Numbered from the stretch's first letter, positions 26,084-40,260 are shown. The stretch is DNA of 53,380 nucleotides from Sandaracinaceae bacterium (GCA_044220955.1 JBGAQA010000018.1:1-53380); one strand, 5' to 3'. Notes: generated by a model not told the origin, from the sequence alone. Made by a program: numbers and translations.

Positions 26084-27645
26084 TCCATGATGGTGCGGGA
26101 CTGCTCGCGCAGGAACTGCTGGACGTAGTAGGGCCCGCAGCCGCCCTTGCCGGTCGAGCCCGAGCCCTTCCAGCCGCAGAACGACTGCACGCCGGGCCAC
26201 GCGCCGGTCGTGGCGCCCGAGGGACGGTTCGCGTAGCAGACGCCGGACTCGACCTCGTCGAAGAAGCGCTCGATCTCGTCCTTCTTGGCGGTGAAGATGC
26301 CCGCCGTCAGGCCGTACTCGGCCTTGTTCGACTCGGCGATGGCCTGATCCATCGAGCGGACCTTGCCGACCGAGAGGAAGGGGACGAAGAGCTCGCGGAA
26401 GAAGAGCTCGTGATCGAGCGGGAGCGCGGCGATGGTCGGGGCGACGAAGTGTCCGCGATCGAACACGCCGCCCGCGAGGCGCGCGCCGCCGAGGACGATC
26501 TCGCCGCCCTTCTTGGCCGACTCGACCGCGCCCTCGAACGTCTTGACCGCGCGCGCGTTGACGACGGGGCCGAAGTACACGTCCTTCTCCGAAGGGTCCC
26601 CGCACTTGATGGCGCGCGTCTTGTCGACGAGCTTGGTGAGGAACGCGTCGTACACGGCCTCGTGCACGTACACGCGCGAGCACGCCGAGCACTTCTGGCC
26701 CTGCAGGCCGAAGGCCGACTTCATCACGCCGCTCGCCGCGTCCTCGAGGTTCGCGGTCTCCGAGACGTAGGTCGGGTTCTTCCCGCCGAGCTCCATCAGC
26801 GCCGGCTTCGGGTAGGCCGAGGAGAACTCCTTGACCATCCGCATGCCGACCTCCTTCGAGCCGGTGAACACGATCCCGTCGACGGCGGGGTTCTTCCAGA
26901 GCGCGTCGCCGATCGCGGCGCCGGTGCCCGTGACGAAGTGGAACGCGCCCGCGGGCACGCCCGCGTCGCGGTAGCACTCGTAGAGCATGAGCCCCGTCCA
27001 GGGCGCGTCCTGAGCCGGCTTGTAGACGACCGCGTTGCCGGCGAGCAGCGCCGCGGCGGACATGCCCGTCGAGAGCGCCATCGGGAAGTTGAAGGGCGCG
27101 ATGCAGACGAACACGCCGTAGGGGCGGAGCACCGAGCGCGTGTTCTCGTTCGGGAGGAGCTTGCCGAGCGGCTTCACGAAGCCGTTCGCGTCGACGACCT
27201 GCTGCGCGTAGTAGTCGATGAGGTCCGCCGACTCCTCGGCGTCGCCCATCGCCTCCATGCGGCTCTTGCCGACCTCGAGGCTCATCACGGCACCGATCTC
27301 GTACTTGCGCTCACGGATGATCGTGGCCGCCTTGCGCAGCGTCTCGACGCGCGACTGCCACGAGCGAGCGGCCCACTCCTTCTGGGCCAGCCTCGCGGCG
27401 CGGCAGGCCTGATCCACGTGATCGGCCGTGGCGGAGGCGAAGCGACCGAGCAGCGCGCCGTCGATCGGCGAGAAGTCCGAGAGCGGCTCCGACCTCGACT
27501 CGACGGCCTGGCCCGAGATCCACAGCGGGTGCGTGCGACCTGCCTTGCCTCGCACCGACGCGAGCGCCGCGTCGAAGTCCGCGTGGAACTGCGTGAGATC
27601 CATGTTCACGGACGTGTACGTGATCTTGAACGGAGCGCTGGACAT
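26080..27645 (-). CDS. Aldehyde dehydrogenase, P5C dehydrogenase (RocA/PruA)-like
   Basis: IAPFNFP, FTGSKEVG, ELGGKN, GQKCSACSR, ELFVP, YGLTAG; GGAG RBS. Confidence 0.9.
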   Translation of the reverse strand: MSSAPFKITYTSVNMDLTQFHADFDAALASVRGKAGRTHPLWISGQAVESRSEPLSDFSPIDGALLGRFASATADHVDQACRAARLAQKEWAARSWQSRVETLRKAATIIRERKYEIGAVMSLEVGKSRMEAMGDAEESADLIDYYAQQVVDANGFVKPLGKLLPNENTRSVLRPYGVFVCIAPFNFPMALSTGMSAAALLAGNAVVYKPAQDAPWTGLMLYECYRDAGVPAGAFHFVTGTGAAIGDALWKNPAVDGIVFTGSKEVGMRMVKEFSSAYPKPALMELGGKNPTYVSETANLEDAASGVMKSAFGLQGQKCSACSRVYVHEAVYDAFLTKLVDKTRAIKCGDPSEKDVYFGPVVNARAVKTFEGAVESAKKGGEIVLGGARLAGGVFDRGHFVAPTIAALPLDHELFFRELFVPFLSVGKVRSMDQAIAESNKAEYGLTAGIFTAKKDEIERFFDEVESGVCYANRPSGATTGAWPGVQSFCGWKGSGSTGKGGCGPYYVQQFLREQSRTIME

Positions 27646-27739
27646 GGGGTCTCTCCGGTGTCGGCGAAGGGGGCGCGAAGATAGCGGACGGCCCCCACCC
27701 ACGCACGGGCCACGCCGCGCGGTCGCGAGGGGCCGGCTC

Positions 27740-29263
27740 CTAGGGTCGGCCCGCGAGGATCGCGCGCGCCGTGCGGAGGCCGAACGTGTAGATGGGTAGC
27801 TGCGGCGGCGTGCCTGTGCTCGTCGGGAAGACCGAGCCGTCGGCGATCCAGAGGCCGGCGAGGTGGTGGTGAGCGCCGCGCTCGTCGGTCACCGACGTCC
27901 GCGGGTCGGTGCCCATCGGCATCGAGCCCATCGGGTGCACCGCGGTGAGCGGGACGTCGTGGGGCAGCATGCGCTCGCTCGTGAAGGCCTCGAGCTCGTG
28001 CTCGGTCCGCGCCGTGAACGGCGGAATGCCCGGGATGCGCACCTCGCGCGCGCCCGCGGCGAGCAGGATGCGGCCGGCGGCACGCGCCCCCAGCGCGAGC
28101 GTCTCTCGGTCCGCCGGGACGGGCCGATACGCGATCCGCGAGCGCTCGCCGTCCCAGTAGACGCGCCCCTCGGTCTCGTCGTGCGCCATCGCCGCGATGA
28201 CCGCCATGCGCGGGTAGTCGCGCATCGCGCGCATGAGGCGCGGACCGAACCCGGGCATCATCGCCGCCGTGCCCGCGGGGTGCGCGAAGCTCGGTACGAG
28301 CCAGACGCGGCTGCGCGAGCCGCGCGAGAGATCGAGGTGCTCGGTGCACTCGTAGCTCTGCGGGATCCCGCGCCACGCCTCGATCCGCTCGTCGAAGAGG
28401 CCCGCGACCGCGACTCCGGGGTGCAGGTGCAGGCCGACGCCCGCGCGACCGAAGGGATCCGGCACGTCGCTGCGGAGCGCGAGGGCGGGCGATCCGATCG
28501 CGCTGCCGGCCAGCACCACGACCGGCGCGCGGGCCGAGAGCGTCCCACGTGCCACGCCGGCGGCGTCCAAGAGCGTCGCCTCCACGCCGAGGGCGCGCGC
28601 GCCGTCGTGCACGACGCGGGTCACCCGCGCGTCGGAGACGATCGTCGCTCCCGCCTCGCTCGCCCGCGGGAGCACGACGCGCCGCGCGTTGAGCTTGGCG
28701 TCGTACGCGCAGCCGAGCTCGCAGAACCCGCTCCCGACGCAGCGCTCGTCGCGGTTGTGCGAGAGCATCCCGCCCCGCCACCCGAGCGCCTCCACTCCGC
28801 GGCGCATCACCGCGTTGTGGGCGCTCAGGCGCTCGGGGCCGATCGGGCGCACGCCGATCAGCCTCTCGACCTCCGCGAAGAGCGCGTCGAGCGCCGCGTC
28901 GGTCAGCGACGAGAGCCCGAGATCCTCCCGCCAGTGGTGGACGATCTCGGGCGCCAGGCGCTTGACGAGGTTCGTGTTGTGCACCGTGGAGCCGCCGAGC
29001 CCCTTGCCCGAGAGGACGAGCAGCGCGAGGTCGTCGGTGCGCTGCCCGCCCATCTCGCGGAAGAGCGCGGGGATCATGTGCTCCTCGCGCTGGTCGAAGT
29101 CGGCGGGCCGGTGGTCTCGACCTTCCTCGAGCACGAGTACCGAGCGACCGGCCGACGCGAGCGCGAGCGCGCAGGTCGATCCGCCGGCGCCGCTGCCGAC
29201 GACGATGGCGTCGACGTCGAATTCGGCAGGGCTCGCCAGATCGGCCCCGGCGAGGAACGTCAC
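27740..29263 (-). CDS. GMC-family FAD oxidoreductase (long-chain alcohol oxidase-like)
   Basis: VVGSGAGG, LGGSTVHN, C..SGFCELGC, AVHPMGS, IADGSVFPTS; GTGA overlap. Confidence 0.9.
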   Translation of the reverse strand: MTFLAGADLASPAEFDVDAIVVGSGAGGSTCALALASAGRSVLVLEEGRDHRPADFDQREEHMIPALFREMGGQRTDDLALLVLSGKGLGGSTVHNTNLVKRLAPEIVHHWREDLGLSSLTDAALDALFAEVERLIGVRPIGPERLSAHNAVMRRGVEALGWRGGMLSHNRDERCVGSGFCELGCAYDAKLNARRVVLPRASEAGATIVSDARVTRVVHDGARALGVEATLLDAAGVARGTLSARAPVVVLAGSAIGSPALALRSDVPDPFGRAGVGLHLHPGVAVAGLFDERIEAWRGIPQSYECTEHLDLSRGSRSRVWLVPSFAHPAGTAAMMPGFGPRLMRAMRDYPRMAVIAAMAHDETEGRVYWDGERSRIAYRPVPADRETLALGARAAGRILLAAGAREVRIPGIPPFTARTEHELEAFTSERMLPHDVPLTAVHPMGSMPMGTDPRTSVTDERGAHHHLAGLWIADGSVFPTSTGTPPQLPIYTFGLRTARAILAGRP

Positions 29264-29859
29264 GACCCACCTCCGGCGCGCGGGCGCCGCGCGGCAGGGC
29301 CCCATCCCTCGCCTGGGCGTGCGACGAGCGGACCGTCGTAGCCGATCGCGTCCCACGTGCGAGGATCACTGAAGTACGAGAGGGCGCAGAGGGACTTGAG
29401 CGCGACGAACGCACCGCGCAAGAGCGGGGTCGCGCTGCTCTCCATCGACTCCAGCACGAGATCCTGCTCCTCGCCGCTGGCCCGGCTGAAGCGGGAGAGC
29501 ACTCCGGCCGAGAGCGGCAGCACGTGCTCGAGCGCGTGCACCAGCCGCAGCAGGTCTCGCCGGTTCGCGGCGTCCATCCCCGCCACGAAGTGATCGATCG
29601 CGCAGCCGATCTCGAGCTGCTCGGGCGCCGGTAGATCGTCCGCGTCGCGCCGCAAGATCCGGGACGCCGCCGCCGAGACGACGAGGTACTCCTTGGCGCT
29701 CAGGGCCTCGAGGCGCGCGAGCACCGCGTCGGGGAGCGCGTAGCCGCTCGTCTGGTAGGCGAGCGTCCCGCCCACGCCGAGCAGGAGCGCGCCTCCGAGC
29801 CCGAGCCGCACGAAGCGCCGCCGCGTGATCGTCGGACGCTCGCCGGACCGCGGCCGCAT
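29260..29859 (-). CDS. Tat-signal partner subunit (gluconate 2-dehydrogenase subunit 3-like)
   Basis: TRRRFVRLG twin-arginine signal; C-terminal YFSDPRTWDAIGYDGP. Confidence 0.85.
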   Translation of the reverse strand: MRPRSGERPTITRRRFVRLGLGGALLLGVGGTLAYQTSGYALPDAVLARLEALSAKEYLVVSAAASRILRRDADDLPAPEQLEIGCAIDHFVAGMDAANRRDLLRLVHALEHVLPLSAGVLSRFSRASGEEQDLVLESMESSATPLLRGAFVALKSLCALSYFSDPRTWDAIGYDGPLVARPGEGWGPAARRPRAGGGS

Positions 29860-29892: not shown

Positions 29893-29906
29893 TTGTGCCA
29901 GATCAA
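29893..29906. promoter_or_regulatory. FNR/CRP-family box TTGTG-CCAG-ATCAA
   Basis: 8/10 match to TTGAT-N4-ATCAA, extended by GA..TC flanks; lies in the divergent gap before the GNAT-bcr cluster. Confidence 0.6.
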
Positions 29907-29958
29907 TCGGCGCCATCGTATGTGATGGAAGGACCAGCCCCGTGCGTAGGGGTACCCC

Positions 29959-30918
29959 ATGATCGGACCGGAGGCTCCACGGGTTTCGGGCGCGGGCGCC
30001 CGCGAGGTCTCGATCCGACCGCTCCTGGAGTCGGACCTCGACGCGCTGGTCGCCCTCGATGCCCGCACGACGGGTGTCCGGCGCCTGGCCTACTTCGAGC
30101 GCCGTCGCGCGGCCGCGATTCGCGCGCCGCGCGAGCACATGCAGCTCGCGGCGACCTCCGAGGGCAGGGTGGTGGGCTGGGTGCTGGCCCGCCTGGCCGG
30201 TGGCCAGTATGGCCGCACGGAGGTGCGACTCGTGCTGGAGTCCCTCGGGGTGGACCCTGGGATCCAGCGCGCCGGGATCGGCGCTCGGCTCCTCGCCCGC
30301 CTGGACGAGCTCGCGAGCGCGCGCGGAATCGGGTCGATCGTCACGCAGGTCGACTGGCGCAACCACTCGATGCTGCACTTCCTCGACCGGGCGGGGTTCC
30401 GGATCGCATGCACCCACGTGCTCGCCCGGGGCGTGGACCGCGTGGGCCCGGAGGACGCCGAGCCGCCGCCGAACGTCTGCCGCGCGCTGCGCCACGACGA
30501 TCTCGAGAGCCTGGTGCGAATCGACGCGGCCCTCACCGGCACGCCGCGGCCGGAGTACTTCCGACGACAGGTCGAGGAGGCGCTGCACGAGTCGGCCATC
30601 GCGGTGTCGCTCGTCGCAGAGGCCGATGGCCTGCCGGTCGCGTTCGCCATGGCGCGCGTGGATCTCGGGGACTACGGGCGCATCGCCAGCGTCGCCTCGC
30701 TCGACACGCTCGGCGTCGTCCCCGGCTTCGCGCGCCGGGGCTACGGCCGGGCGCTGCTCACGCAGATGATCGACAACCTCTCCGCGCTCCGCATCGACCG
30801 CCTCGAGACCGAGGCGGCGCGCGACGACTTCGACCTGCTGCGATTCTTCTACCGCGCGGGCTTCCAGCCCTCGTCGCGGATTCCCTTCGAGCGGAGCACT
30901 GCGCCCGGCAAGAGATGA
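29959..30918 (+). CDS. Tandem GNAT acetyltransferase
   Basis: Two homologous halves, each with motif A (VDPGIQRAGIG; VVPGFARRGYG). Confidence 0.88.
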   Translation: MIGPEAPRVSGAGAREVSIRPLLESDLDALVALDARTTGVRRLAYFERRRAAAIRAPREHMQLAATSEGRVVGWVLARLAGGQYGRTEVRLVLESLGVDPGIQRAGIGARLLARLDELASARGIGSIVTQVDWRNHSMLHFLDRAGFRIACTHVLARGVDRVGPEDAEPPPNVCRALRHDDLESLVRIDAALTGTPRPEYFRRQVEEALHESAIAVSLVAEADGLPVAFAMARVDLGDYGRIASVASLDTLGVVPGFARRGYGRALLTQMIDNLSALRIDRLETEAARDDFDLLRFFYRAGFQPSSRIPFERSTAPGKR

Positions 30919-31016
30919 TCGAGCGCATGTCGGCGAGAGGGCCCGCACGGTGAGCGTGGGGGAGACCGAGGGCGTGCGTAGGGACGAACGGGACGTGTAG
31001 CCCCGAGAGGTCGGAG

Positions 31017-32108
31017 ATGACTGCGGACGTGGAGCTCACCTGCTGGCAGGCCGTGAAGGCGAGAGAGCCGATGGCGATCGCGCGGCGCACGGTCTCGCCC
31101 GCGGCGCTGGCCCCGCACGACGTCCTGGTCCGGGTGGCCGGCTGCGGCGTCTGCCACACCGACCTCGGCTTCCTCTACGACGGCGTGCGGACCGGGAAGC
31201 CGTTTCCGCTCACGCTCGGTCACGAGATCGCCGGGCGGGTCGTGGCCGCCGGCAGCGACAACACCCACCTCGTCGGCCGCGCCGTCGTCGTCCCTGCCGT
31301 CATCCCTTGCGGGGAGTGCAGGCTGTGTCTCAAGGGACGCGGGTCGATCTGCCGCGCGCAGCTCTTCCCCGGCTCGGACATCGACGGCGGCTTCGCGTCG
31401 CACGTCGTCGTGCCGGCGCGCGGCCTCTGTCCGGTCGACGAGGCGCAGCTCGCGAGCGCGGGCCTCGATCTGTCCGAGCTCTCCGTCCTCGCCGACGCCA
31501 TCTCCACGCCCTACCAGGCCATCGTGCGGGCGGGCGTGACCCAGGGCGACGTCGCCATCTTCGTCGGCGCGGGCGGCGTCGGGGGCTTCGGCGTCCAGAT
31601 CGCGCGCGCCCTCGGTGCGCACGTCGTCGCGATCGACGTCGACGAGCAGCGGCTCGCGCGGGCGGCGCAGCACGGCGCGGCGTTCACCCTCGTGTCGAAG
31701 GACAAGGACGCGGCCGAGATCCGGAAGCTCGTCCAGGCACACGTGAAGGACGTCGGCGGCAACCCCTACGAGTGGAAGATCTTCGAGACCTCGGGGCATC
31801 CTGCCGGACAGCTGCTGGCGTACACGCTGCTGACCTTCGGCGCGACCCTCTCGGTCGTCGGCTACTCGCTCGAGAAGGTCCAGCTGCGCCTGGCCAACCT
31901 GATGGCGTTCGACGCGACGGCGCAGGGCAACTGGGGCTGTCTCCCCGAGCACTACCCCGCTGCGCTCGCCCTCGTGCTCGCCGGCAAGGTCGCGCTGCGG
32001 CCCTTCGTCGAGCGACGCCCCATGAGCCGGATCAACGAGACGTTCCGCGAGCTCCACGAGGGCGCGCTCCGTCGGCGCCCCGTGCTCGAGCCCGACTTCG
32101 AGAGGTGA
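31017..32108 (+). CDS. had: 6-hydroxycyclohex-1-ene-1-carbonyl-CoA dehydrogenase
   Basis: Zn-MDR motifs GCGVCHTDLG, LGHEIAG, PCGECRLC; LANLMAFDATAQGNWGC; operon context. Confidence 0.9.
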   Translation: MTADVELTCWQAVKAREPMAIARRTVSPAALAPHDVLVRVAGCGVCHTDLGFLYDGVRTGKPFPLTLGHEIAGRVVAAGSDNTHLVGRAVVVPAVIPCGECRLCLKGRGSICRAQLFPGSDIDGGFASHVVVPARGLCPVDEAQLASAGLDLSELSVLADAISTPYQAIVRAGVTQGDVAIFVGAGGVGGFGVQIARALGAHVVAIDVDEQRLARAAQHGAAFTLVSKDKDAAEIRKLVQAHVKDVGGNPYEWKIFETSGHPAGQLLAYTLLTFGATLSVVGYSLEKVQLRLANLMAFDATAQGNWGCLPEHYPAALALVLAGKVALRPFVERRPMSRINETFRELHEGALRRRPVLEPDFER

Positions 32109-32113
32109 ACACG

Positions 32114-33217
32114 ATGCTCCACGACCACGATCTGACGCCGCCCCGCAGCCCCGCCGACCGTCCTCGGGTGCTCTACGAGCTCAAGCCCGTGCGAACGCCC
32201 GCGGGAGCCGTCGCCGAGGGCCTCTTCGCGGCGTGGATCACGCTGGACAACCCGGCCCAGTACAACTCGTACACGACCGAGATGGTCAAGGACGTGATCC
32301 TCGGCATGCGTCGCGCGAGCAACGCTCGGGACGTGGTCGCCGTCGTCTTCACGGGGGCGGGCGATCGCGCCTTCTGCACCGGCGGCAACACCAAGGAGTA
32401 CGCCGAGTACTACGCGGGCCGGCCGGGCGAGTACGCGCAGTACATGCGCCTCTTCAACGACATGGTGTCGAGCATCCTCAGCTGCGACAAGCCGGTGATC
32501 TGCCGCGTGAACGGCATGCGCATCGGGGGCGGGCAGGAGATCGGGATGGCCTGCGACTTCAGCGTCGCGAGCGACCTGGCCTCGTTCGGGCAGGCCGGTC
32601 CGAAGCACGGCTCGGCGCCGATCGGTGGCGCGACCGACTTCCTGCCGGTGCTCGTCGGGGCCGAGCGCGCGATGGCGAGCTGCACGCTCTGCGTCCCGTG
32701 GTCCGCGTACAAGGCCGTCCACGCCGGGATGATCACCGACGCCGTCGCGGTGCTCGAGCTCGAGGGGCGCTTCGTCCCCAACCCGCTGGTGATCACCGAC
32801 CGCTTCCTCGAGGGCGGCCGGATCGTCTACGGAGAGCCCAAGACGGGCGACGAGCTGAAGGCGGGCAAGGCGATGCTCTCGCGCGGGAAGATCGATCTCG
32901 CCCCGCTCGACGCGGCCGTCGATCGGATGGTCACCCAGATCCTGATGACGTTCCCGAATTGCATGCAGCAGACGGTGGAGTCGATCCGGCGTCACAAGCT
33001 CGCGCACTGGGACCGCAACAAGGAGGCGAGCCGGGCGTGGCTCGCGCTCAACATGCTCTCGGAGGCCCACGCCGGGTTCCGCGCCTTCAACGAGGGAACC
33101 AAGGACGACCGCGAGGCGGACTTCGTGCTCCTGCGCCAGAGGCTCGCGCGCGCCGAGCCCTGGACGGCCGAGCTGATCGACGCGCTCCAGCCGAAATCGA
33201 GCAAGGCCGCCCGATGA
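32114..33217 (+). CDS. oah: 6-oxocyclohex-1-ene-1-carbonyl-CoA hydrolase (BamA/BzdY)
   Basis: WITLDNPAQYNSYTT, FCTGGNTKEYAEYY, RVNGMRIGGGQEIGMACD, GPKHGSAPIGGATDFL. Confidence 0.95.
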   Translation: MLHDHDLTPPRSPADRPRVLYELKPVRTPAGAVAEGLFAAWITLDNPAQYNSYTTEMVKDVILGMRRASNARDVVAVVFTGAGDRAFCTGGNTKEYAEYYAGRPGEYAQYMRLFNDMVSSILSCDKPVICRVNGMRIGGGQEIGMACDFSVASDLASFGQAGPKHGSAPIGGATDFLPVLVGAERAMASCTLCVPWSAYKAVHAGMITDAVAVLELEGRFVPNPLVITDRFLEGGRIVYGEPKTGDELKAGKAMLSRGKIDLAPLDAAVDRMVTQILMTFPNCMQQTVESIRRHKLAHWDRNKEASRAWLALNMLSEAHAGFRAFNEGTKDDREADFVLLRQRLARAEPWTAELIDALQPKSSKAAR

Positions 33218-33987
33218 GCGTGGAGGCGCCGCCGCTCCGCGCGACCCTGACGACGGAAGGACGCGTCCTTCATCTCCTGCTCGACGCGCCGAAGGGCAAC
33301 GTGCTCGACGCGCGCATGATCGCCGCCCTCTCGGCCGCGCTCGAGGCACACGGGTCCTCCCCCGCGCTCCGCGCCCTCGTGTTCGAGGGCGCCGGCCCGA
33401 ACTTCTGCTTCGGCGCGAGCGTGGCGGAGCACACCCGGGCCAAGGCCAAGGACATGCTCGCACAGCTGCACGGGCTCTTCCGGCAGCTCGCGCGCCTCGC
33501 CGTGCCCACGGTCGCGGTCGTGCGGGGCGCATGCCTCGGCGGCGGTCTCGAGCTCGCCGCCTGGTGCACGTGGGTGTTCGCATCGCCGGAGGCGACCTTC
33601 GGTCAGCCCGAGATCAAGCTCGCGGTCTTTCCGCCGATGGCCTCGCTCGTCCTGCCGTGGAGGCTGGGCGGAGGACGCGCCCTGGATCTCTGCGTCTCGG
33701 GGCGCAGCGTGTCCGCGCTGGAGGCCCGGGCGCTGGGTCTGGTCCACGACGTCTACGGGGCGCCGGACGACGCCGCGCGCGCCTTCGTCAGCGAGCACCT
33801 GCTGCCGCGCAGCGGGCCCTCGCTGCGCTTCGCCGAGCGGGCCGCCCGCGCGGGGCTCGTCGAGCTGCTCGATGCGCGCCTGCCGCAGCTCGAGAGGCTC
33901 TACCTGGAGGAGCTGATGGCTACGCCGGACGCCAACGAAGGCATCGCAGCCTTCCTCGAGCGGCGCGCACCGCGCTGGGAGTCGTGA
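33214..33987 (+). CDS. dch: Cyclohexa-1,5-diene-1-carbonyl-CoA hydratase
   Basis: Crotonase fold: PKGNVLD, FCFGASVAEH, CLGGGLE, GQPEIKLAVFPP, LERLYLEELM; ATGA overlap. Confidence 0.9.
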   Translation: MSVEAPPLRATLTTEGRVLHLLLDAPKGNVLDARMIAALSAALEAHGSSPALRALVFEGAGPNFCFGASVAEHTRAKAKDMLAQLHGLFRQLARLAVPTVAVVRGACLGGGLELAAWCTWVFASPEATFGQPEIKLAVFPPMASLVLPWRLGGGRALDLCVSGRSVSALEARALGLVHDVYGAPDDAARAFVSEHLLPRSGPSLRFAERAARAGLVELLDARLPQLERLYLEELMATPDANEGIAAFLERRAPRWES

Positions 33988-35186
33988 TGGAAACCGGAGG
34001 CTCGAACGACCCCGCCTCGAGCGAGCTGAGCGCGCTCGTCGAGCGCGCCGAGGCTCTCTATCGTGATCTCGATCTCGCGTCGGTGAAGGCCTGGCGGGAG
34101 CGGAACGGCGGGGCGAAGGCCATCGGCTTCATGCCGATCTACGTGCCGCGCGAGCTGATCGACGCGGCCGGGATGCTCCCGGTGGGGATCATGGGCGGGC
34201 GCGGTCAGGTGGAGATCATCCGCGGCGACGCGTGGTTCCAGTCCTACATCTGCCAGCTGCCGCGGAGCACGATCGAGCTCGCGCTGACGGGCCGCCTCGA
34301 CGTGCTCGACGGCATGCTCTTCCCGTCCATCTGCGACGTCATCCGGAACCTGTCCGGGATGTGGAAGGTGAAGTTCCCGGACAAGTACGTCCGCTATTTC
34401 GACGTCCCGCAGAACTACGATCCCCGGGTCGGCGGCCGCTTCTACGAGCAGGAGCTGAAGCACCTCTACGCCGATCTGCGCCGCCTCTCGGGGACGACGC
34501 TCGATCCGGACGAGGCGCTCGAGCGATCGATCCTGCGCTACGACGAGAACCGTCGCGCGATCACCGAGCTGCTCGCGCTCCGCTCGGCCGAGCCGTGGAA
34601 GGTGCCGACCTGGGAGGTCTACCTGATCCTCTTCGCGGGCAACGTCCTGCCCGTCGAGGAGCACACCGCGCTCGTTCGCGCCTATCACGCGGCCGCGCGC
34701 GCGAGCGAGCGGCCTCGCCGCGACAACGCTCGCGTCGTCGTCTCCGGCGCGTTCTGCGAGCAGCCGCCGCTCGAGCTGATCCGGACGCTCGAGCTCGCCG
34801 GCTGCTACGTCGTCGCGGACGACATGGCGCTCGGGCGGCGCTGGCCGACCGAGGACGTCGGGGTCGGCGGGGCGCCGATCGCGAGGCTGGCCAAGGCCTT
34901 CCTCGAGCACAGCCCCTCGACCGCCGCGCGCTACGAGCCGGTGGGCGATCGAGGGCAGCCGCTCGTTCAGCTGGTGAAGCGCAACCGCGCCGAGGGCGTC
35001 GTGCTCGCCGCGCCCAGCTTCTGCGATCCAGCGCTGCTCGAGCAGCCCATCCTGCAGGACACGCTCGATCACGCGCGCGTGCCCTGGACCGCGTTCAAGT
35101 ACGCCGAGAGCCTCGGCCAGTTCCAGGTCATCCGCGAGCAGGCGGGGACGTTCGCCGATTCGATCAAGCTGTGGAGCGAGCCATGA
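33987..35186 (+). CDS. bcrC: Class I benzoyl-CoA reductase subunit C
   Basis: MPIYVPRELI, IIRGDAWFQSYIC, FPSICDVIRNLSGMW, PSFCDPALL, QAGTFADSIKLW. Confidence 0.93.
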   Translation: METGGSNDPASSELSALVERAEALYRDLDLASVKAWRERNGGAKAIGFMPIYVPRELIDAAGMLPVGIMGGRGQVEIIRGDAWFQSYICQLPRSTIELALTGRLDVLDGMLFPSICDVIRNLSGMWKVKFPDKYVRYFDVPQNYDPRVGGRFYEQELKHLYADLRRLSGTTLDPDEALERSILRYDENRRAITELLALRSAEPWKVPTWEVYLILFAGNVLPVEEHTALVRAYHAAARASERPRRDNARVVVSGAFCEQPPLELIRTLELAGCYVVADDMALGRRWPTEDVGVGGAPIARLAKAFLEHSPSTAARYEPVGDRGQPLVQLVKRNRAEGVVLAAPSFCDPALLEQPILQDTLDHARVPWTAFKYAESLGQFQVIREQAGTFADSIKLWSEP

Positions 35187-36523
35187 GCGACACCGAGGTC
35201 AAGGACGCCTCCATGCTCCAGCAGAAGGAGATGATCGCGGGGCACTTCCGCGCGCTCTCCCGCGCGAAGGAGGATGGGCGCAAGGTCGTCTACACGTTCG
35301 TCCCCGGCAACCTCACCGAGCTCATGCACGCGTTCGACGTGCTGCCGCTCTACCCCGAGATCAACGCGCTGCAGTCCGGGATGAGGAAGAAGTCGGGCGC
35401 CTACATCGCGGAGGCCGAGCGCCTCGGGCACTCCGAGGACGTCTGCGCGTACGTGAAGAGCGACATCGGGATGCTGCGCGCCGGCAACGTCGGCCCGACC
35501 GGCGAGAAGCTCCCTCCACCCGACCTGCTCCTGCTCTCTTACACGGGCTGCTTCACTTTCATGAAGTGGTTCGAGCTGCTCAAGCGCGAGTACGACTGCC
35601 CCGTCGCGATGCTCCACGTCCCCTACCAGGGCGACGGCGAATTCACGCCCGAGATGCGCGCGTACGTCGTCGACCAGCTCCGCACCGAGGTGATCCCGAA
35701 GCTCGAGCAGATCACGGGCAAGAAGCTGGACGAGGCCAAGCTCGAGGAGGCGCTCGCCAAGTCCCGGGTCGCCGAGGACGACCTCGTCTGGGTGCTCGAG
35801 TCGGCCAAGAACCGGCCCTCTCCGATCGACGCCTACTTCGGCGGTGTCTACTACATCGGGCCGATCTTCACGGCCTTCCGCGGGACGGACCTCGCCGTCG
35901 ACTACTACCGCACGCTCCGCTCCGAGGTGCAGGCGCGCCTCGACCTCGGCCTCGGGCCGATCACGCCGGACGGCCCGCTGAAGCAGGAGCGCTACCGGCT
36001 CGTGGTCGAAGGACCGCCGAGCTGGCCGGCCTTCCAGGAGTTCTGGAAGATGTTCTCCGGCGATGGAGCGGTGGTCGTCGCGAGCTCGTACACGAAGGTC
36101 GGCGGCTTCTACGATCAGGGCTTCCGCCACGATCCGCGGAGGCCTCTCGAGACGCTCGCCGACTACTGCGCGGGCTGTTACACGAACCTGAACCTCCCCT
36201 CGCGCATCGAGATCCTGTCGAAGTACGTGCGCGACTACCAGGCCGACGGTCTGCTCATCAACTCGGTCAAGAGCTGCAACAGCTTCTCGGCCGGGCAGCT
36301 CATGATCCTGCGCGAGGTCGAGGAGCGGACCGGCGTCCCGGGCGGGTTCATCGAGACGGACCTCGTCGACCCCCGCTACTTCTCGGCGGCGAACGTGAAG
36401 AACCGGCTCGAGAGCTACTTCCAGATGATCGAGCAGAAGCGACGCAACCCCACGGCAGCACGCTCGGCGCCCGCCGTGATCGGGAGCGACGCATCGCGCC
36501 GGCGCCTCGAGGTGCTCACGTGA
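35183..36523 (+). CDS. bcrB: Class I benzoyl-CoA reductase subunit B
   Basis: YTFVPGNLTEL, GHSEDVC, YTGCFTFMKWFE, KSCNSFSAGQ, ETDLVDPRYFS. Confidence 0.93.
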   Translation: MSDTEVKDASMLQQKEMIAGHFRALSRAKEDGRKVVYTFVPGNLTELMHAFDVLPLYPEINALQSGMRKKSGAYIAEAERLGHSEDVCAYVKSDIGMLRAGNVGPTGEKLPPPDLLLLSYTGCFTFMKWFELLKREYDCPVAMLHVPYQGDGEFTPEMRAYVVDQLRTEVIPKLEQITGKKLDEAKLEEALAKSRVAEDDLVWVLESAKNRPSPIDAYFGGVYYIGPIFTAFRGTDLAVDYYRTLRSEVQARLDLGLGPITPDGPLKQERYRLVVEGPPSWPAFQEFWKMFSGDGAVVVASSYTKVGGFYDQGFRHDPRRPLETLADYCAGCYTNLNLPSRIEILSKYVRDYQADGLLINSVKSCNSFSAGQLMILREVEERTGVPGGFIETDLVDPRYFSAANVKNRLESYFQMIEQKRRNPTAARSAPAVIGSDASRRRLEVLT

Positions 36524-37824
36524 GGGCGTTCGTCGGCATCGATCTCGGATCCACCACGACCAAGGCCGTGATGCTCGACGACGCGGGCGGCGTCCTCGGC
36601 CGCGGCATCACCAACAGCCGGAGCGACTACCACCTCGCCGCCGACCTCGCGCGCGAGGAGGCGCACATCGACGCGCGCTTCACGCTGCTCGACCGCGCGC
36701 TCGAGGCGGCGGGCGAGACGGGCGAGGAGGCCGTCGTGTTCCGCAAGCGGCTGCTCCACCGCTTCCGCAAGGTGCAACGCCTCGCGCAGCTCGCCTCGCT
36801 GCGCGAGAAGTCCATGGCCGAGGCGCGCGGCGAGCGGCTGCGCCACCACGGCGAGGATCTGGCGCGCCGCGTCGGCGAGATCTTCGAGGAGATCGACCGA
36901 TCGTGGCGCAAGCCCCGCCTCACGGTCGGTCCGAGCTCCGACTTCTTCCGGGATCAGGCCGCGGCCGACTACGGCAAGCTCGCCGAGCGCGTCGCCGACA
37001 AGAAGATCCCCTTCGACGTGCTGATGAGCGTCTTCGACAAGGTCATCATCGTCGTCGAGAACGAGCGCCTCGACCTGACGTTCGAGGGGAACATCCGCGC
37101 GGCGCTCGCGGAGTGCATCGCCGCGGAGGCGCCCGAGCGCCGCGCGCGCTACGAGGCGGCCGTGCTCGGCGCGGCCGAGATGCCGCTGGCCATCGCGCGG
37201 ACGATCGGCACCGGCTACGGGCGCCAGACGCTGCCCTTCGCCAAGGAGGACATCCGCTCGGAGATCCTCTGTCACGGGCTCGGCGCCCACATCGCGTTCC
37301 CGAAGACGACGACCGTGCTCGACATCGGCGGCCAGGACACCAAGGCCATCCAGGTCGACGAGGCCGGCATCGTCACCAGCTTCCAGATGAACGATCGTTG
37401 CGCCGCGGGCTGCGGGCGCTACCTCGGCTACATCGCCGACGAGATGAACATGGGCGTACACGAGCTCGGCCCGCTCGCGCTGCAGTCGACGCGCCACGTG
37501 AAGATCAACAGCACGTGCACGGTCTTCGCGGGCGCCGAGCTGCGCGACCGCCTCATGATGGGGCAGAAGCGAGAGGACATCCTGGCCGGTCTGCACCGCG
37601 CGATCATCCTCAGGGCCATGGCCCTGCTCGCGCGCTCGGGCGGGATCTTCGACGAGTTCACGTTCACCGGAGGCGTCGCGAACAACGCGGCGGCCGTGCT
37701 GGCGCTGCGGCAGCTGGTCGAAGAGAACTACGGCGCCCGCACGCTCAACATCTCGCCGAGCTCGATCTACACGGGCGCTCATGGTGCGGCGCTCTTCGCG
37801 GTGCGTGCAGGAGGCGAGGCATGA
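36520..37824 (+). CDS. bcrA: Class I benzoyl-CoA reductase subunit A (ASKHA ATPase)
   Basis: GIDLGSTTTK, long insert, GTGYGR, SEILCHG, DIGGQDTK, MNDRCAAGCGRYL, STCTVF; 434 aa, consistent with the Thauera/Rhodopseudomonas type. Confidence 0.94.
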   Translation: MRAFVGIDLGSTTTKAVMLDDAGGVLGRGITNSRSDYHLAADLAREEAHIDARFTLLDRALEAAGETGEEAVVFRKRLLHRFRKVQRLAQLASLREKSMAEARGERLRHHGEDLARRVGEIFEEIDRSWRKPRLTVGPSSDFFRDQAAADYGKLAERVADKKIPFDVLMSVFDKVIIVVENERLDLTFEGNIRAALAECIAAEAPERRARYEAAVLGAAEMPLAIARTIGTGYGRQTLPFAKEDIRSEILCHGLGAHIAFPKTTTVLDIGGQDTKAIQVDEAGIVTSFQMNDRCAAGCGRYLGYIADEMNMGVHELGPLALQSTRHVKINSTCTVFAGAELRDRLMMGQKREDILAGLHRAIILRAMALLARSGGIFDEFTFTGGVANNAAAVLALRQLVEENYGARTLNISPSSIYTGAHGAALFAVRAGGEA

Positions 37825-38711
37825 CGGGGACGGTCGTCACGGTGGGGATCGACGTCGGCTCGAGCACCGTCAAGGTCGCGGTGGTCGAGAGCCCGGCCGG
37901 GAGCGGCCGGGAGCGCGCGGGCGCGCGGGTCCTGGCCAAGGCGCTCGAGCGGACGCGACGGCGCGATCAGCAGCAGATCGTGGCGGCGACGCGCGCGGCG
38001 GCGATGGAGGAGGCGGGCGTGGACCGGCGCGCGCTCGCGTACGTGGCGACGACGGGGGACGGCGAGACCGTCGACGATACGACGGGGCACTTCTACGGGA
38101 TGACGGCGCACGCCCGTGGGGCGCTCTTCCTCGATCCCACGGCGCGCGCGGCCATCGACGTGGGCTCGCTCCACGCGCGCGCGATCCGCTTCGACGAGCG
38201 CGCGAAGGTGCTCGACTACCGGATGACGAGCCAGTGCGCCTCGGGCACCGGGCAGTTCCTGGAGAACATCGCTCGCTACCTCGGCGTGACGCTCGACGAG
38301 GTCGGGCCGCTCTCGCTGAAGGGCACGACGCCCGAGAAGGTGTCGGGGATCTGCGCGGTGCTCGCCGAGACCGACGTCATCAACATGGTCTCGCGCGGCA
38401 TCTCCACGGCCAACATCCTGCGAGGCATCCACGACTCCATGGCGGCGGGCTTCTCGAAGCTCCTGCGGAACGCACGGGCGGAGGGGATCGTGGTGGTGAC
38501 GGGCGGGCTCTCGGCCGACATCGGCCTGCTGAGCGCGCTGCGCGCGTCGATGGACAAGCCCGCGACCAAGAAGGACGTGGCGCCACTCAAGGACGTGGAG
38601 ATCCGCCCGCACGTCGACGGGGTCTACGCGGGCGCGATCGGAGCGGCGCTCTGGGGCGCCTACCGAGCGGAGCGGCTGGCCGAGGCTCCGCTCACGGCGT
38701 CACCTCCATGA
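37821..38711 (+). CDS. bcrD: Class I benzoyl-CoA reductase subunit D (ASKHA ATPase)
   Basis: GIDVGSSTVK, ATTGDGE, HFYGMTAHARGA, MTSQCASGTGQFLENIARYL, SGICAVLAETDVINMVSRG. Confidence 0.93.
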   Translation: MTGTVVTVGIDVGSSTVKVAVVESPAGSGRERAGARVLAKALERTRRRDQQQIVAATRAAAMEEAGVDRRALAYVATTGDGETVDDTTGHFYGMTAHARGALFLDPTARAAIDVGSLHARAIRFDERAKVLDYRMTSQCASGTGQFLENIARYLGVTLDEVGPLSLKGTTPEKVSGICAVLAETDVINMVSRGISTANILRGIHDSMAAGFSKLLRNARAEGIVVVTGGLSADIGLLSALRASMDKPATKKDVAPLKDVEIRPHVDGVYAGAIGAALWGAYRAERLAEAPLTASPP

Positions 38712-39879
38712 AGCCGAGCGCGCCGCGACGGAAGTAGGGCGTCTCGTGGTCGACCAGCATGTCGAGCTCGGGCAGGAGGACGTAATCGCCCGGCACGTTG
38801 ACGACGAGGTTCGTCCGATCGATCCGGACGACCGCGCTCCCGGCGGACGGGATCAAGACCGTCTGTAGCGAGTGCGCGGGAGGCGAGAGCAGATCTCCGT
38901 CGACCCACACGTCGTCGAAGACCGCCCCGATGATGTGGAACGTCGGGACGTGGACGCCACCCGCCCCGTGGTAGATGACGTAGCTGCGAGCGGCGCTGCC
39001 GAGCAGCGGATGATCGACGAGCGCGCTGACGCGGCCGTTGTAGGTCACGACGTCGGGGAACGCGCGCGAGTACTGGCCGAGCTGGTCGAAGCCACCCTGG
39101 GCGTCGAGGTACACGTCCTGCTCGAACACGTAGTGCTCCGAGACGCCGTCAGCGAGCATCTGGTTGAAGGGAGCGCCTTCGTCGAGGTTGCCGTCGGCGT
39201 CGCCCGGCAGCACCAGGATCAGCCCCGACATGCCGCCGTTCATGTGCTCGGCGATGCCGCCGGGCGTGCCGTCCTCGGCGCAGTGGTAGACGAACAGGCC
39301 CGGGTGCGTCGGCCGGATGGTCATGCGGACCGTCTGCCCGGGCTCGGCCATGAGCATCGCGGCGCCGCCGCGCGCGCCGACCACGGCGTGGAAGTCGATG
39401 GAGTGCGGCTCCGCGCTCTCGGCCGGGTTCTCGAGGACGATCTCGAGCGACCGGTTCTGGACGACCTTCAGGAAGGGCCCGGGGACCCGCGCCGTCCAGT
39501 AGCCAGCCGGGATCGAGGGGTCGTCGGTCGTCGCGGCGTAGGCCATGAATTCCATCGGCACGTCCGCCGCGCCCGACCACCTCGGTGGATCCAGCGAGGG
39601 ATCGCGCGGGGCGACGAACGATCGGATCTCGCGCGTCGTGAAGGTCACCGTCGCGCCGTCCGCGAGGGGAAGGGCGGGGACCTCGTTCGGGTCTCGGGCG
39701 ATGTCGTAGTCGGCCGAGTGCGTGGTGCTCCACTCGTCGCCGCCGACGAGCGGCGACACGATGGGATAGAGGTAGCTCGGGGGCCGCGCCTCGGAGGCCG
39801 GCGCGGGCGCGGCCGTGCACGCCGCCAGAGCGACGCCGACGGCGATCCGCGGAACGAGGTTGATTCTCATACGCATCAT
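38692..39879 (-). CDS. nirK: Copper-containing nitrite reductase, lipoprotein (AniA-like); start at 39879 or 39870
   Basis: Lipobox LAAC; PHSIDFH, YHC...EHMNGGM, TFHIIG and LVDH...GALG supply type-1 and type-2 Cu ligands plus catalytic Asp/His. Confidence 0.82.
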   Translation of the reverse strand: MMRMRINLVPRIAVGVALAACTAAPAPASEARPPSYLYPIVSPLVGGDEWSTTHSADYDIARDPNEVPALPLADGATVTFTTREIRSFVAPRDPSLDPPRWSGAADVPMEFMAYAATTDDPSIPAGYWTARVPGPFLKVVQNRSLEIVLENPAESAEPHSIDFHAVVGARGGAAMLMAEPGQTVRMTIRPTHPGLFVYHCAEDGTPGGIAEHMNGGMSGLILVLPGDADGNLDEGAPFNQMLADGVSEHYVFEQDVYLDAQGGFDQLGQYSRAFPDVVTYNGRVSALVDHPLLGSAARSYVIYHGAGGVHVPTFHIIGAVFDDVWVDGDLLSPPAHSLQTVLIPSAGSAVVRIDRTNLVVNVPGDYVLLPELDMLVDHETPYFRRGALGFMEVTP

Positions 39880-39905
39880 GCTGCCTGGCCCGACGTGGCG
39901 ACGGC

Positions 39906-39919
39906 TTGATCGCGAGCAA
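39906..39919. promoter_or_regulatory. FNR/DNR/NnrR-type box TTGAT-CGCG-AGCAA upstream of nirK
   Basis: 9/10 match to TTGAT-N4-ATCAA, centred 42.5 bp upstream of the ATG at 39870. Confidence 0.7.
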
Positions 39920-39977
39920 TCGCGCCTCGACGGGGTCGCTCCCACGGCTCTCGGCCGGATGGGATGGGCTCTGCGCC

Positions 39978-40260
39978 ATGGTCTCGCGCTGGGCGCTCGG
40001 CGCGCTCTTGCTCCAGCTGGCGCTGGCCGCCTGGGCCGGTGAGCGCTTCCCGATCTCGCTGGGTGTCGGTCGCGGCGCTGATCTCGGGGGCCGGCACGCT
40101 CGGAGAGGTCCAGCGCGGCCCGCACGCGCTCGGTGCCGCGTGGGTCGCGCTCGGGTCGATCGCGTACGTCGTGTCGATCGTGCTCTGGGCTGCTGGGCGG
40201 GCTCTCGGCGTTCGCGCTGCTGGCCCGGCTCGTTCGGAGGACGCTCCTCTTCCCTACGGC
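39978..40260 (+). pseudogene. Possible frameshifted remnant of a membrane protein gene
   Basis: TM-like MVSRWALGALLLQLALAAWAG in one frame continues as WVSVAALISGAG...WVALGSIAYVVSIVLWAAG in the +1 frame near 40060; no clean stop. Confidence 0.35.

What the first reader, a model, noticed from the sequence alone, without database searches (positions are those of the whole stretch)
29893..39919. Compact anoxic module: benzoyl-CoA dearomatisation operon convergent with nirK and bracketed by two FNR-type boxes, in a myxobacterium-like genome
Seen: GNAT-had-oah-dch-bcrCBAD on +, with oah through bcrD coupled by overlapping stop/start codons; nirK on - with its 3' end overlapping bcrD; and a near-consensus TTGAT-N4-ATCAA box at each outer end. 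Known: class I BCR with Dch/Had/Oah is the O2-sensitive ring-reduction route of facultative anaerobes such as Thauera, Aromatoleum/Azoarcus and Magnetospirillum, and FNR-family proteins (AcpR, AadR) activate such operons. Inference: an apparently Polyangia-type host, a group usually regarded as aerobic predators or scavengers, carries aromatic electron-donor and nitrite-acceptor genes as one co-regulated unit. It could serve anoxic use of benzoate or of prey-derived Phe/Tyr carbon. I know of no described bcr-nirK unit in Myxococcota, but could not search.
Basis: partly seen in the sequence, partly recalled or inferred. Interest (0 to 1): 0.85.

Follow-up and report, generated by a model that had tools for sequence, protein, structure and literature searches.

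The report
Myxobacterial oxygen-free benzene-ring breakdown operon
An uncultured myxobacterium carries an intact gene set that likely breaks benzene rings without oxygen; its key gene sits in about one in seven myxobacterial genomes searched, but the neighbouring nitrite-reductase-like gene lies beside it in no other genome checked, so that pairing is likely a local arrangement rather than a conserved unit.

Summary
The genes, overlaps and boxes are as described. GNAT-had-oah-dch-bcrCBAD is an intact Thauera-type class I benzoyl-CoA reductase operon, native to a Polyangia genome and not chimeric. That genome also encodes benzoate-CoA ligase, ferredoxin with 2-oxoacid oxidoreductase, Box genes and a denitrification chain.

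The bcr-nirK 'unit' is not conserved. No nirK lies near bcr in 54 of 54 same-order loci or 88 of 88 wider loci. In all 13 other genomes holding both genes they lie apart. This nirK is a rare, divergent second copy; the canonical nirK sits elsewhere with norCB.

Both boxes belong to a genome-wide TTGATC-N5-CAA class (14 sites, 0-2 in shuffles). FNR-like boxes precede 17 of 49 relatives' bcr operons against 5 of 181 controls. A shared anoxia regulon is therefore likely, but not a dedicated module.

bcrB occurs in 54 of 401 order-level and 56 of 401 phylum-level genomes. The scan already found this cassette in other non-proteobacterial genomes. Verdict: a known pathway in an under-reported host group.

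The parts
29893..29906 (.). Crp/Fnr-family box (TTG-N8-CAA; class TTGATC-N5-CAA), 59 bp from the GNAT start and 41 bp from the divergent gene
   Evidence: function inferred
29959..30918 (+). Tandem two-domain GNAT acetyltransferase; its halves correspond to the separate GNAT genes of proteobacterial bcr clusters (BadL-like family; orthology not shown)
   Evidence: Pfam PF00583, two stretches; GNAT in 25 of 54 order loci and 52 of 88 loci; halves compared
31017..32108 (+). [quoted passage not shown]
   Evidence: TIGR03201 488.9 bits, cut-off 338.65
32114..33217 (+). oah, 6-oxocyclohex-1-ene-1-carbonyl-CoA hydrolase
   Evidence: TIGR03200 581.5 bits, cut-off 464.45
33214..33987 (+). dch, cyclohexa-1,5-diene-1-carbonyl-CoA hydratase
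   Evidence: best family TIGR03189 253.9 bits, below cut-off 292.5; conserved position
33987..35186 (+). bcrC
   Evidence: TIGR02263 522.4 bits, cut-off 421.15; invariant Cys89, 116, 257, 346
35183..36523 (+). bcrB
   Evidence: TIGR02260 707.7 bits, cut-off 486.55; invariant Cys88, 123, 365
36520..37824 (+). bcrA (long alpha-type ATPase subunit, 434 aa)
   Evidence: best family TIGR02259 531.9 bits, below cut-off 578, full-length match
37821..38711 (+). bcrD
   Evidence: TIGR02261 318.5 bits, cut-off 312.85
38692..39879 (-). Divergent copper nitrite reductase-like protein (second nirK copy) with a predicted lipoprotein signal (LAAC); 3' end overlaps bcrD by 20 bp
   Evidence: TIGR02376 152.6 bits, below cut-off 296.3; Cu ligands and catalytic Asp/His kept; CuNiR fold
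39906..39919 (-). Crp/Fnr-family box (same TTGATC-N5-CAA class), centre about 33 bp upstream of the nirK-like start
   Evidence: function inferred

Best explanation
This is an intact Thauera-type class I benzoyl-CoA reductase operon, native to a Polyangia myxobacterium, that likely lets the cell dearomatise and open benzoyl-CoA without oxygen while it likely respires nitrate or nitrite, and the nirK-like gene beside it is a divergent second copy that likely shares the same Crp/Fnr anoxia signal without forming a conserved unit. Inferred mechanism: benzoate-CoA ligase (C279) and an Hcr-like molybdoenzyme (C9) would supply benzoyl-CoA. A 2-oxoacid:ferredoxin oxidoreductase and a 2[4Fe-4S] ferredoxin (C77) would feed BcrAD, which would use ATP to pass electrons to BcrBC and make the cyclic dienoyl-CoA. 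Dch, Had and Oah would give 3-hydroxypimelyl-CoA for beta-oxidation. Electrons would go to NapA-like, NirK, cNor/qNor and NosZ enzymes encoded elsewhere. With oxygen, BoxB/BoxC would take the same benzoyl-CoA. Shown: genes, family scores, cysteines, synteny, tree position and motif enrichment. Inferred: activity, substrate, regulator identity and induction.
For: Family scores and conserved Cys. Host markers: RpoA named hits are Deltaproteobacteria 91-92% and Sandaracinaceae/Polyangiaceae/Myxococcota 85%. Both flanks match same-genus genomes. The bcrD-nirK junction is bridged by contigs of runs from three studies (X2 38375-40059, X4 38382-39476, X19 38464-38805). Codon use is typical: CAI percentiles 6-67 and tetranucleotide distance at the 84th percentile. 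BcrB+C sit in an 11-row clade (SH-aLRT 99) of same-order and Myxococcota rows, apart from the 8 proteobacterial rows. Supporting genes over cut-off: benzoate-CoA ligase, OAFO alpha/beta and YfhL-type ferredoxin, canonical NirK, TAT-type NosZ and cbb3 oxidase, BoxB and BoxC. bcrB prevalence is 54 of 401 and 56 of 401. No nirK lies near bcr in 54 of 54 (47 have >=1.3 kb after bcrD) or 88 of 88 loci. Boxes: 14 intergenic TTGATC-N5-CAA sites against 0-2 in 10 shuffles; boxes before 17 of 49 bcr operons against 5 of 181 control upstream regions. Eight near-identical contigs of one sludge RNA library cover had, oah, dch, bcrB, the bcrB/bcrA joint and the bcrD end (not shown transcribed).
Against: BcrA, Dch, the nirK-like protein, NapA (855.6 against 904) and the three Hcr-like subunits score below curated cut-offs. 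No sigma-70 promoter was found near either box. No protein matched an FNR model over cut-off; the Cys-rich Crp-HTH protein at C234 had no NCBIfam hit at 1e-8. The closest relative operon (L011) has no box in 350 nt upstream, and 32 of 49 operons lack one. The left box could serve the divergent GMC genes. The TTGATC-N5-CAA pattern was chosen after seeing the sites. 40 of 54 bcr genomes had no nirK hit (nirS, nrfA and narG were not searched there), so nitrite is not shown to be the general acceptor. No pad-type phenylacetate route was recognised among the 5 PF00384 hits. The MAG is 87.9% complete. There is no activity or growth data.
Confidence: 0.78

Rival explanations
1. bcr and the divergent nirK form a selected, co-regulated donor-acceptor module, perhaps recently assembled and moving as one block.
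For: Both carry the same motif class, while the canonical nir/nor/nos genes carry another. Both are missing from 5 of 5 congeners. The junction recurs in contigs from three studies, one with about 2% differences. Genomes with bcrB hold nirK slightly more often: 14 of 54 against 51 of 347, Fisher p=0.047, with kin not independent.
Against: Adjacency was found in 0 of 54 and 0 of 88 loci, and 13 of 13 other genomes with both genes have them on different contigs or more than 2.7 Mb apart. The sister operon L011 (89% BcrB) has unrelated genes after bcrD. The 4 metagenome loci of the divergent nirK clade show no bcr, though 3 are short. Convergent genes cannot share a transcript. At least 12 other sites share the motif.
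Confidence: 0.12
2. The enzymes act on a substituted or amino-acid-derived aroyl-CoA (for example from prey Phe/Tyr through an Hcr-like/chain-elongation route) more than on free benzoate, or serve fermentation or redox balance and not denitrifying growth.
For: Hcr-like large subunits and IPMS-like genes lie beside bcr in 11 and 10 of 54 order loci and together at C9 in this genome. A benzoate-CoA ligase homolog lies near bcr in only 1 of 54 loci. An unchecked scan note (e1-8527090) proposes such a route. 40 of 54 bcr genomes had no nirK hit.
Against: This genome has a benzoate-CoA ligase over cut-off and Box genes. BcrB is far closer to the BCR type than to MbdO (707.7 bits for TIGR02260; phmmer 208.9 bits to MbdO). 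This rival largely complements the best explanation.
Confidence: 0.3
3. The region is a chimera, a binning contaminant or a recent import from a Thauera/Azoarcus/Magnetospirillum-like degrader.
For: Absent from 5 of 5 congeners and present in only 3 of 31 family members. A stray bcrB fragment of another type lies on a 1153-bp contig.
Against: Both flanks match congeners, the composition is host-like, the junction is bridged in other studies, and the tree places it among same-order sequences away from Proteobacteria.
Confidence: 0.03

Closest known systems
Thauera aromatica had-oah-dch-bcrCBAD-fdx cluster (class I BCR, BCR type); likewise Magnetospirillum and Rhodopseudomonas BadDEFG
   Same: Same four subunits and ring-opening enzymes, matched to the TIGR models. 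The same gene order occurs in many alphaproteobacterial loci. Electron supply by 2-oxoglutarate:ferredoxin oxidoreductase and ferredoxin is described for T. aromatica (PMC2984482, passages), and homologs are in this genome.
   Different: No ferredoxin in the operon (0 of 47 order loci against 23 of 65 named loci). The two GNAT genes are fused and placed first. The sequences form a separate Polyangia clade, and the host is a myxobacterium.
Non-proteobacterial class I BCR cassettes in MAGs (Krumholzibacteriota, PMC10936416; Acidobacteriota, Zixibacteria, Desulfobacterota, PMC11704145 and PMC13170169; passages)
   Same: Same cassette in uncultured lineages, inferred from genomes only. One search adds Planctomycetota, Gemmatimonadota and Eisenbacteria records at 70-76% BcrB identity.
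   Different: The passages read do not name Polyangia as bcrABCD carriers. PMC11704145 lists 2 Myxococcota MAGs as aromatic mineralisers; the one supplement row seen is class B64-G9.
Copper nitrite reductases NirK/AniA (PDB 6the, 2dv6, 1kbv)
   Same: Two-cupredoxin fold (TM 0.63/0.81 to 6the), type-1 and type-2 Cu ligands and catalytic Asp/His, and a predicted lipoprotein signal as in AniA (the AniA signal is recalled).
   Different: Only 33-40% identical to canonical NirK and below the family cut-off. It belongs to a small clade of about 35 protein clusters at 40% identity or more, found in 2 of 401 order genomes (the second is the unpublished G318).
CRP/FNR-family sites: FNR/DNR TTGAT-N4-ATCAA, NnrR TTGcg-N4-cgCAA, delta-proteobacterial HcpR TTGAC-N4-GTCAA (PMC1274295, passages); R. 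palustris AadR/BadM/BadL control (PMC6191541, passages)
   Same: TTG-N8-CAA core; a GNAT gene beside the reductase genes.
   Different: The window's boxes are hybrids with one FNR-like half, and no regulator gene is adjacent. No Rrf2/BadM or TetR gene lies in this locus, whereas a TetR gene lies in 25 of 54 order loci.

Membership tests
Class I benzoyl-CoA reductase, BCR (Thauera) type | Four subunits C, B, A, D in one operon | tested here: met
Class I benzoyl-CoA reductase, BCR (Thauera) type | Subunits B, C, D over curated BCR-type cut-offs and far above Bzd/Mbd types | tested here: met
   B 707.7/486.55, C 522.4/421.15, D 318.5/312.85; BzdO 71.7, BzdN 88.8; MbdO 208.9 bits by phmmer
Class I benzoyl-CoA reductase, BCR (Thauera) type | Subunit A over the TIGR02259 cut-off | tested here: inconclusive
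   531.9 against 578, full-length match and best family
Class I benzoyl-CoA reductase, BCR (Thauera) type | Fe-S cysteines (three each in B and C, two each in A and D; ligand roles recalled) | tested here: met
   BcrB C88/C123/C365 and BcrC C89/C116/C346 are invariant in 123 aligned rows; BcrA C294/C333 and BcrD C139/C178 are present
Class I benzoyl-CoA reductase, BCR (Thauera) type | ATP-dependent reduction of benzoyl-CoA to the 1,5-dienoyl-CoA | not testable with these tools
   needs an enzyme assay
Thauera-type benzoyl-CoA cluster | Dch, Had and Oah genes linked to bcr | tested here: met
   had and oah over cut-off; dch best family but 253.9 against 292.5
Thauera-type benzoyl-CoA cluster | Ferredoxin gene right after bcrD | tested here: not met
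   none in the window and 0 of 47 order loci; ferredoxin lies beside the OAFO genes on C77
Copper nitrite reductase (NirK) | Type-1 Cu (H159, C200, H212, M217), type-2 Cu (H164, H199, H378), catalytic D162 and H315 (roles recalled) | tested here: met
   all invariant in alignment A1
Copper nitrite reductase (NirK) | TIGR02376 cut-off | tested here: not met
   152.6 against 296.3; hence filed as NirK-like, a divergent clade
Copper nitrite reductase (NirK) | CuNiR two-domain fold | tested here: met
   model mean pLDDT 77, with residues 366-387 under 50; all listed Foldseek hits are CuNiRs
Copper nitrite reductase (NirK) | Nitrite-to-NO activity as a trimer | not testable with these tools
   needs an assay
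FNR regulon | TTG-N8-CAA sites upstream, above chance | tested here: met
FNR regulon | An O2-sensing [4Fe-4S] FNR in the genome that binds them | tested here: inconclusive
   three Crp-HTH proteins examined (C222, C278, C234); one has a Cys-rich N-terminus; none passes an FNR model cut-off
FNR regulon | Box centred near -41.5 of a sigma-70 promoter (recalled) | tested here: inconclusive
   no sigma-70 consensus found; transcription starts unknown
BadL/BadM system of R. palustris | GNAT next to an Rrf2 repressor | tested here: not met
   no Rrf2 gene in the locus; 26% to the GNAT beside the Rrf2-like gene of L059 and 32-39% to the two further GNAT hits there
Proposed bcr-nirK module | Adjacency conserved in independent lineages | tested here: not met
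   0 of 54, 0 of 88, and 13 of 13 genomes with both genes apart

The most novel reading that the evidence does not exclude
Myxococcota are an overlooked major group of anaerobic aromatic-ring degraders. About one in seven genomes carries class I benzoyl-CoA reductase in its own lineages, swapped between families and wired to Crp/Fnr anoxia control, so sludge and soil 'predators' burn the aromatic rings of prey protein and benzoate while denitrifying. This strain has also recruited an undescribed clade of lipoprotein nitrite reductases into the same anoxia regulon.
Probability: 0.4. Interest if true: 0.65.

Novelty: new member of a known kind. Interest (0 to 1): 0.36.

Why it matters
The enzymes and gene order are textbook, so the locus alone is ordinary, and the proposed donor-acceptor module does not hold up. 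What is useful is the breadth: bcrB passed the curated cut-off in about 14% of the Polyangiales-level and phylum-level genomes sampled. If these genes are active, myxobacteria in activated sludge, soil and sediment belong on the list of anoxic aromatic degraders, and primer sets and isotope-probing studies aimed at Thauera/Azoarcus would miss them. The organism occurs in activated sludge of several studies, so this can be tested by nitrate plus 13C-benzoate enrichment. The divergent NirK clade also matters for nirK surveys, because it falls below the standard model cut-off.

Tried and rejected
(1) Conserved bcr-nirK synteny: searched from the bcr side, from the nirK side (no bcrA-D hit in 80 of 80 metagenome loci, only 4 of them in the divergent clade) and by genome. 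Rejected.

(2) Chimera, contaminant or proteobacterial import: rejected.

(3) Simple vertical descent within the family: holding the four family-f1 sequences together is rejected, p-AU 1.4e-6 (quick LG+G4 tree; the group was named after an earlier FastTree had been seen). Transfer within the order or loss of old paralogs is more likely.

(4) A clean insertion site: congeners have other genes after sdhC and before the methyltransferase cluster, so the area is rearranged. No island ends were defined and no repeat search was run.

(5) Sigma-70 promoters: 0 found. The 2 terminator-like sites equal chance, and neither is at the bcrD-nirK junction. A sigma-54 reading of the boxes was checked by eye against a recalled consensus and did not fit.

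(6) Expression: the RNA run X19 had no cover on most of the nirK-like gene, the GNAT or the flanks (14 of 30 bins covered), and only 2 records on a 20-kb control stretch (stricter 97% likeness). The run was found with the bcr stretch and contigs carry no strand or level, so neither the cover nor the gaps show regulation.

(7) Host rank through named loci: the tool gives no kinship for them, so the family stays unresolved.

(8) Literature: no report of bcrCBAD in Polyangia or of a bcr-nirK unit appeared in the listings of searches (0 papers), 47, 64, 72 and 82, or in the passages read from them; one search was uninformative. PMC8580003 is not held.

(9) boxA, nirS, nrfA, narG-specific models and pad genes were not searched by their own models. 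The glutaryl-CoA dehydrogenase candidate (C235) rests on one recalled motif, and a second recalled motif was absent.
Full report
OBSERVATION. The window is the first 53 kb of contig C99 (92 kb) of G000, a MAG of 7.5 Mb in 301 contigs, 72.5% GC, 87.9% complete and 2.7% contaminated. The eight + strand genes and the convergent - strand gene are at the coordinates listed under parts. oah to bcrD overlap by 1-4 bp, and bcrD and the nirK-like gene overlap by 20 bp. NCBIfam puts had, oah, bcrC, bcrB and bcrD over their cut-offs. dch (253.9/292.5) and bcrA (531.9/578) are below cut-off, but those families are their best hits. The nirK-like protein scores 152.6/296.3. The boxes have 2 (left) and 1 (right) mismatches; the window holds 5 matches at <=2 mismatches against 1.86 expected.

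HOST AND ASSEMBLY. Named RpoA relatives are 'Deltaproteobacteria bacterium' at 91-92% and Sandaracinaceae, Polyangiaceae, Myxococcales and Myxococcota records at 85% (most of the 120 rows are unnamed). The two closest named BcrB loci are Polyangiaceae and Polyangiales MAGs at 81%. I take the host as Polyangia, with the family unresolved. Window 12000-24680 matches 4 of 5 congeners in long blocks at 69-89% DNA identity, and 40316-44630 matches one at 80%. The stretch between, including bcr and the nirK-like gene, was not found in 5 of 5 (81-97% complete). Codon and tetranucleotide use are host-like. Contigs from runs of three studies bridge the bcrD-nirK joint, one with 35 differences in 1.7 kb, so a second strain. 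The three DNA runs laid are activated-sludge metagenomes of three studies; the best holder, possibly the source, was left out.

THE OPERON IS COMMON IN THE GROUP. TIGR02260 passes its cut-off in 54 of 401 order-level genomes (counts include G000; 0 of 5 congeners, 3 of 31 in the family) and in 56 of 401 phylum-level genomes at >=85% completeness (17 of 26 in one family). The control genomes gave 0 of 14. I fetched 54 loci from 53 genomes: 52 of the 53 others over cut-off (G180 was left out because its contig is about 1.5 kb), plus G379, with two loci from G300. bcrB and bcrC are in 54, bcrA in 53, bcrD and dch in 51, had in 48 and oah in 44; some loci end at contig edges. estimates about 1900 stretches matching its patterns across the species collection, in many phyla. 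In a 37-row BcrB+C tree (rows chosen by me from the 123-row tree), the window is sister to a same-family locus (SH-aLRT 100), inside an 11-row clade (99) of same-order and Myxococcota rows, apart from the 8 proteobacterial rows (100). Same-order rows fall in at least three clades, and family monophyly is rejected (p-AU 1.4e-6). Transfer within the order or old paralogy is inferred.

THE nirK LINK IS LOCAL. With three NirK queries at E<=1e-6, 0 of 54 order loci had a hit (47 have >=1.3 kb after bcrD). With two queries, 0 of 88 loci had a hit (this set overlaps the first and has some redundancy). Of 54 bcr genomes, 14 have a nirK hit; in all 13 besides G000 it is on another contig or more than 2.7 Mb away. 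G000's canonical nirK (369 bits, over cut-off) lies on C222 with a RIC gene, a Crp/Fnr gene and norCBQD-like genes. The window's copy is 40% identical to it and belongs to a clade of about 35 clusters, found in 2 of 401 order genomes (the second, G318, is unpublished, and only this count and the counts rest on it). All copper ligands and the catalytic Asp/His are kept, and the model matches CuNiR structures. It therefore works like a NirK by every sequence test except the cut-off. Four metagenome loci of this clade show no bcr (three are under 5 kb). Other anoxia genes recur loosely beside bcr in relatives: Crp/Fnr in 6, hemerythrin in 4, norCB in 1, Hcr-like in 11 and TetR in 25 of 54.

REGULATION. 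G000 shows two motif classes in intergenic DNA. TTGATC-N5-CAA has 14 sites against 0-2 in 10 shuffles and includes both window boxes; its other sites precede radical SAM genes, a CoA-activase gene, a COX15-like gene and others. TGATC-N2-GATCA has 7 sites against 0-1 and precedes nosZ, ric, norC and an Fe-S assembly gene. Both patterns were defined after inspection. In relatives, 17 of 49 bcr operons have a box within 350 nt upstream, against 5 of 181 other upstream regions in the same loci and 34 of 3259 in G000 (kin are not independent, but the 17 fall in several clades). PMC1274295 (passages) gives TTG-N8-CAA consensuses for FNR/DNR, NnrR and HcpR, so the box alone does not name the regulator. 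Inference: bcr and the nirK-like gene are separate members of an anoxia regulon, while the main denitrification genes answer to an NO-type regulator. Against this: no box before the closest relative's operon, no promoter found, and the left box is shared with a divergent gene.

REST OF THE PATHWAY. Over cut-off: benzoate-CoA ligase; OAFO alpha and beta, YfhL-type ferredoxin, NosZ, NosD and cbb3 oxidase; BoxB and BoxC. Below cut-off but with a high-scoring match: NapA, and HcrA and HcrB (the HcrC-like subunit scores slightly better on another model). Four heme-copper family genes were found; I read them from context as aa3, cbb3, cNor and qNor. PMC2984482 (passages) describes the ferredoxin/2-oxoglutarate oxidoreductase supply in T. 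aromatica and notes that such ferredoxins also occur in myxobacteria and in non-degraders, so their presence is necessary rather than diagnostic. The mechanism is given under Best explanation; every catalytic and regulatory step is inferred.

WHAT IS KNOWN. Passages read: PMC10936416 (bcrABCD in 12 of 40 Krumholzibacteriota MAGs); PMC11704145 (class I BCR in Acidobacteriota, Zixibacteria and Desulfobacterota; 2 Myxococcota MAGs listed as aromatic mineralisers, one supplement row seen); bioRxiv 10.64898/2026.07.10.737566 (benzoate and toluene degradation genes in Polyangiaceae, Haliangiaceae, Anaeromyxobacteraceae and Houyiibacteriaceae, 'often coupled with anaerobic respiration'; 'bcr' 0 times in the main text); PMC11821767 (denitrification genes in sludge Myxococcota; 'benzo' 0); PMC6191541 (BadL). 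Passages of PMC10803450, PMC13170169, PMC11742803, PMC11484514, PMC10576062 and bioRxiv 10.1101/2025.11.25.690425 do not report bcrCBAD in Polyangia. Other papers were seen only as search listings. Preprint supplements are closed and may already list bcr in these families, and most subscription papers are not held. Earlier scan notes found the same cassette on other DNA and called it ordinary; none of the 8 shown there describes a myxobacterial host or a nirK link, and the word search found nothing.

VERDICT. A real, intact, native operon; a new member of a known kind. The module claim is not supported. The residual interest lies in the breadth across Myxococcota, the two-motif regulatory split and the divergent NirK clade. 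Interest 0.36.

Noticed in passing
G000:C173:238-1053 (L010): About 66-80 residues of a second bcrB, 79-85% identical to the N-terminus of another Polyangiales clade's BcrB, on a locus of 1153 bp, after which the frame diverges: a remnant, misassembly or contaminant.
   Followed up: partly
G000:C9:2634-8309 (L283) and L016, L176, L197: hcrCAB-like molybdoenzyme genes with an IPMS/homocitrate-synthase-like gene and a MocA-like gene; the same set lies beside bcr in 10-11 of 54 order loci.
   Followed up: partly
G000:C77:9793-21192 (L284): Ferredoxin, hemerythrin, 2-oxoacid:ferredoxin oxidoreductase alpha/beta, rubrerythrin and a nuo-like run in one cluster; possibly a ferredoxin-linked complex I.
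   Followed up: partly
G000:C247:6407-7816 and C294:20636-22258: boxB and boxC are both over cut-off but on separate contigs; boxB stands without box neighbours.
   Followed up: no
G000:C222:177712-183216 (L125): napA/napD-like genes divergent from a cytochrome c, a ferredoxin and an NrfD/DsrP-like gene (DsrP model over cut-off): an unusual quinol link for Nap.
   Followed up: no
G000:C155:37042-44802 (L286): A TAT-type (clade I) nosZ cluster in a myxobacterium, where clade II would be expected (expectation recalled).
   Followed up: no
phylum sample, family f38: bcrB over cut-off in 17 of 26 genomes of one unnamed family.
   Followed up: no
window 24764-29859: Class III aminotransferase, aldehyde dehydrogenase, GMC oxidoreductase and gluconate-2-DH-subunit-3-like genes, not found in 5 congeners apart from short weak matches, transcribed away from the left box.
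   Followed up: partly
L017, L201, L202: had/oah or bcrB hits are split across frames in these loci (possible sequencing frameshifts or decay).
   Followed up: no
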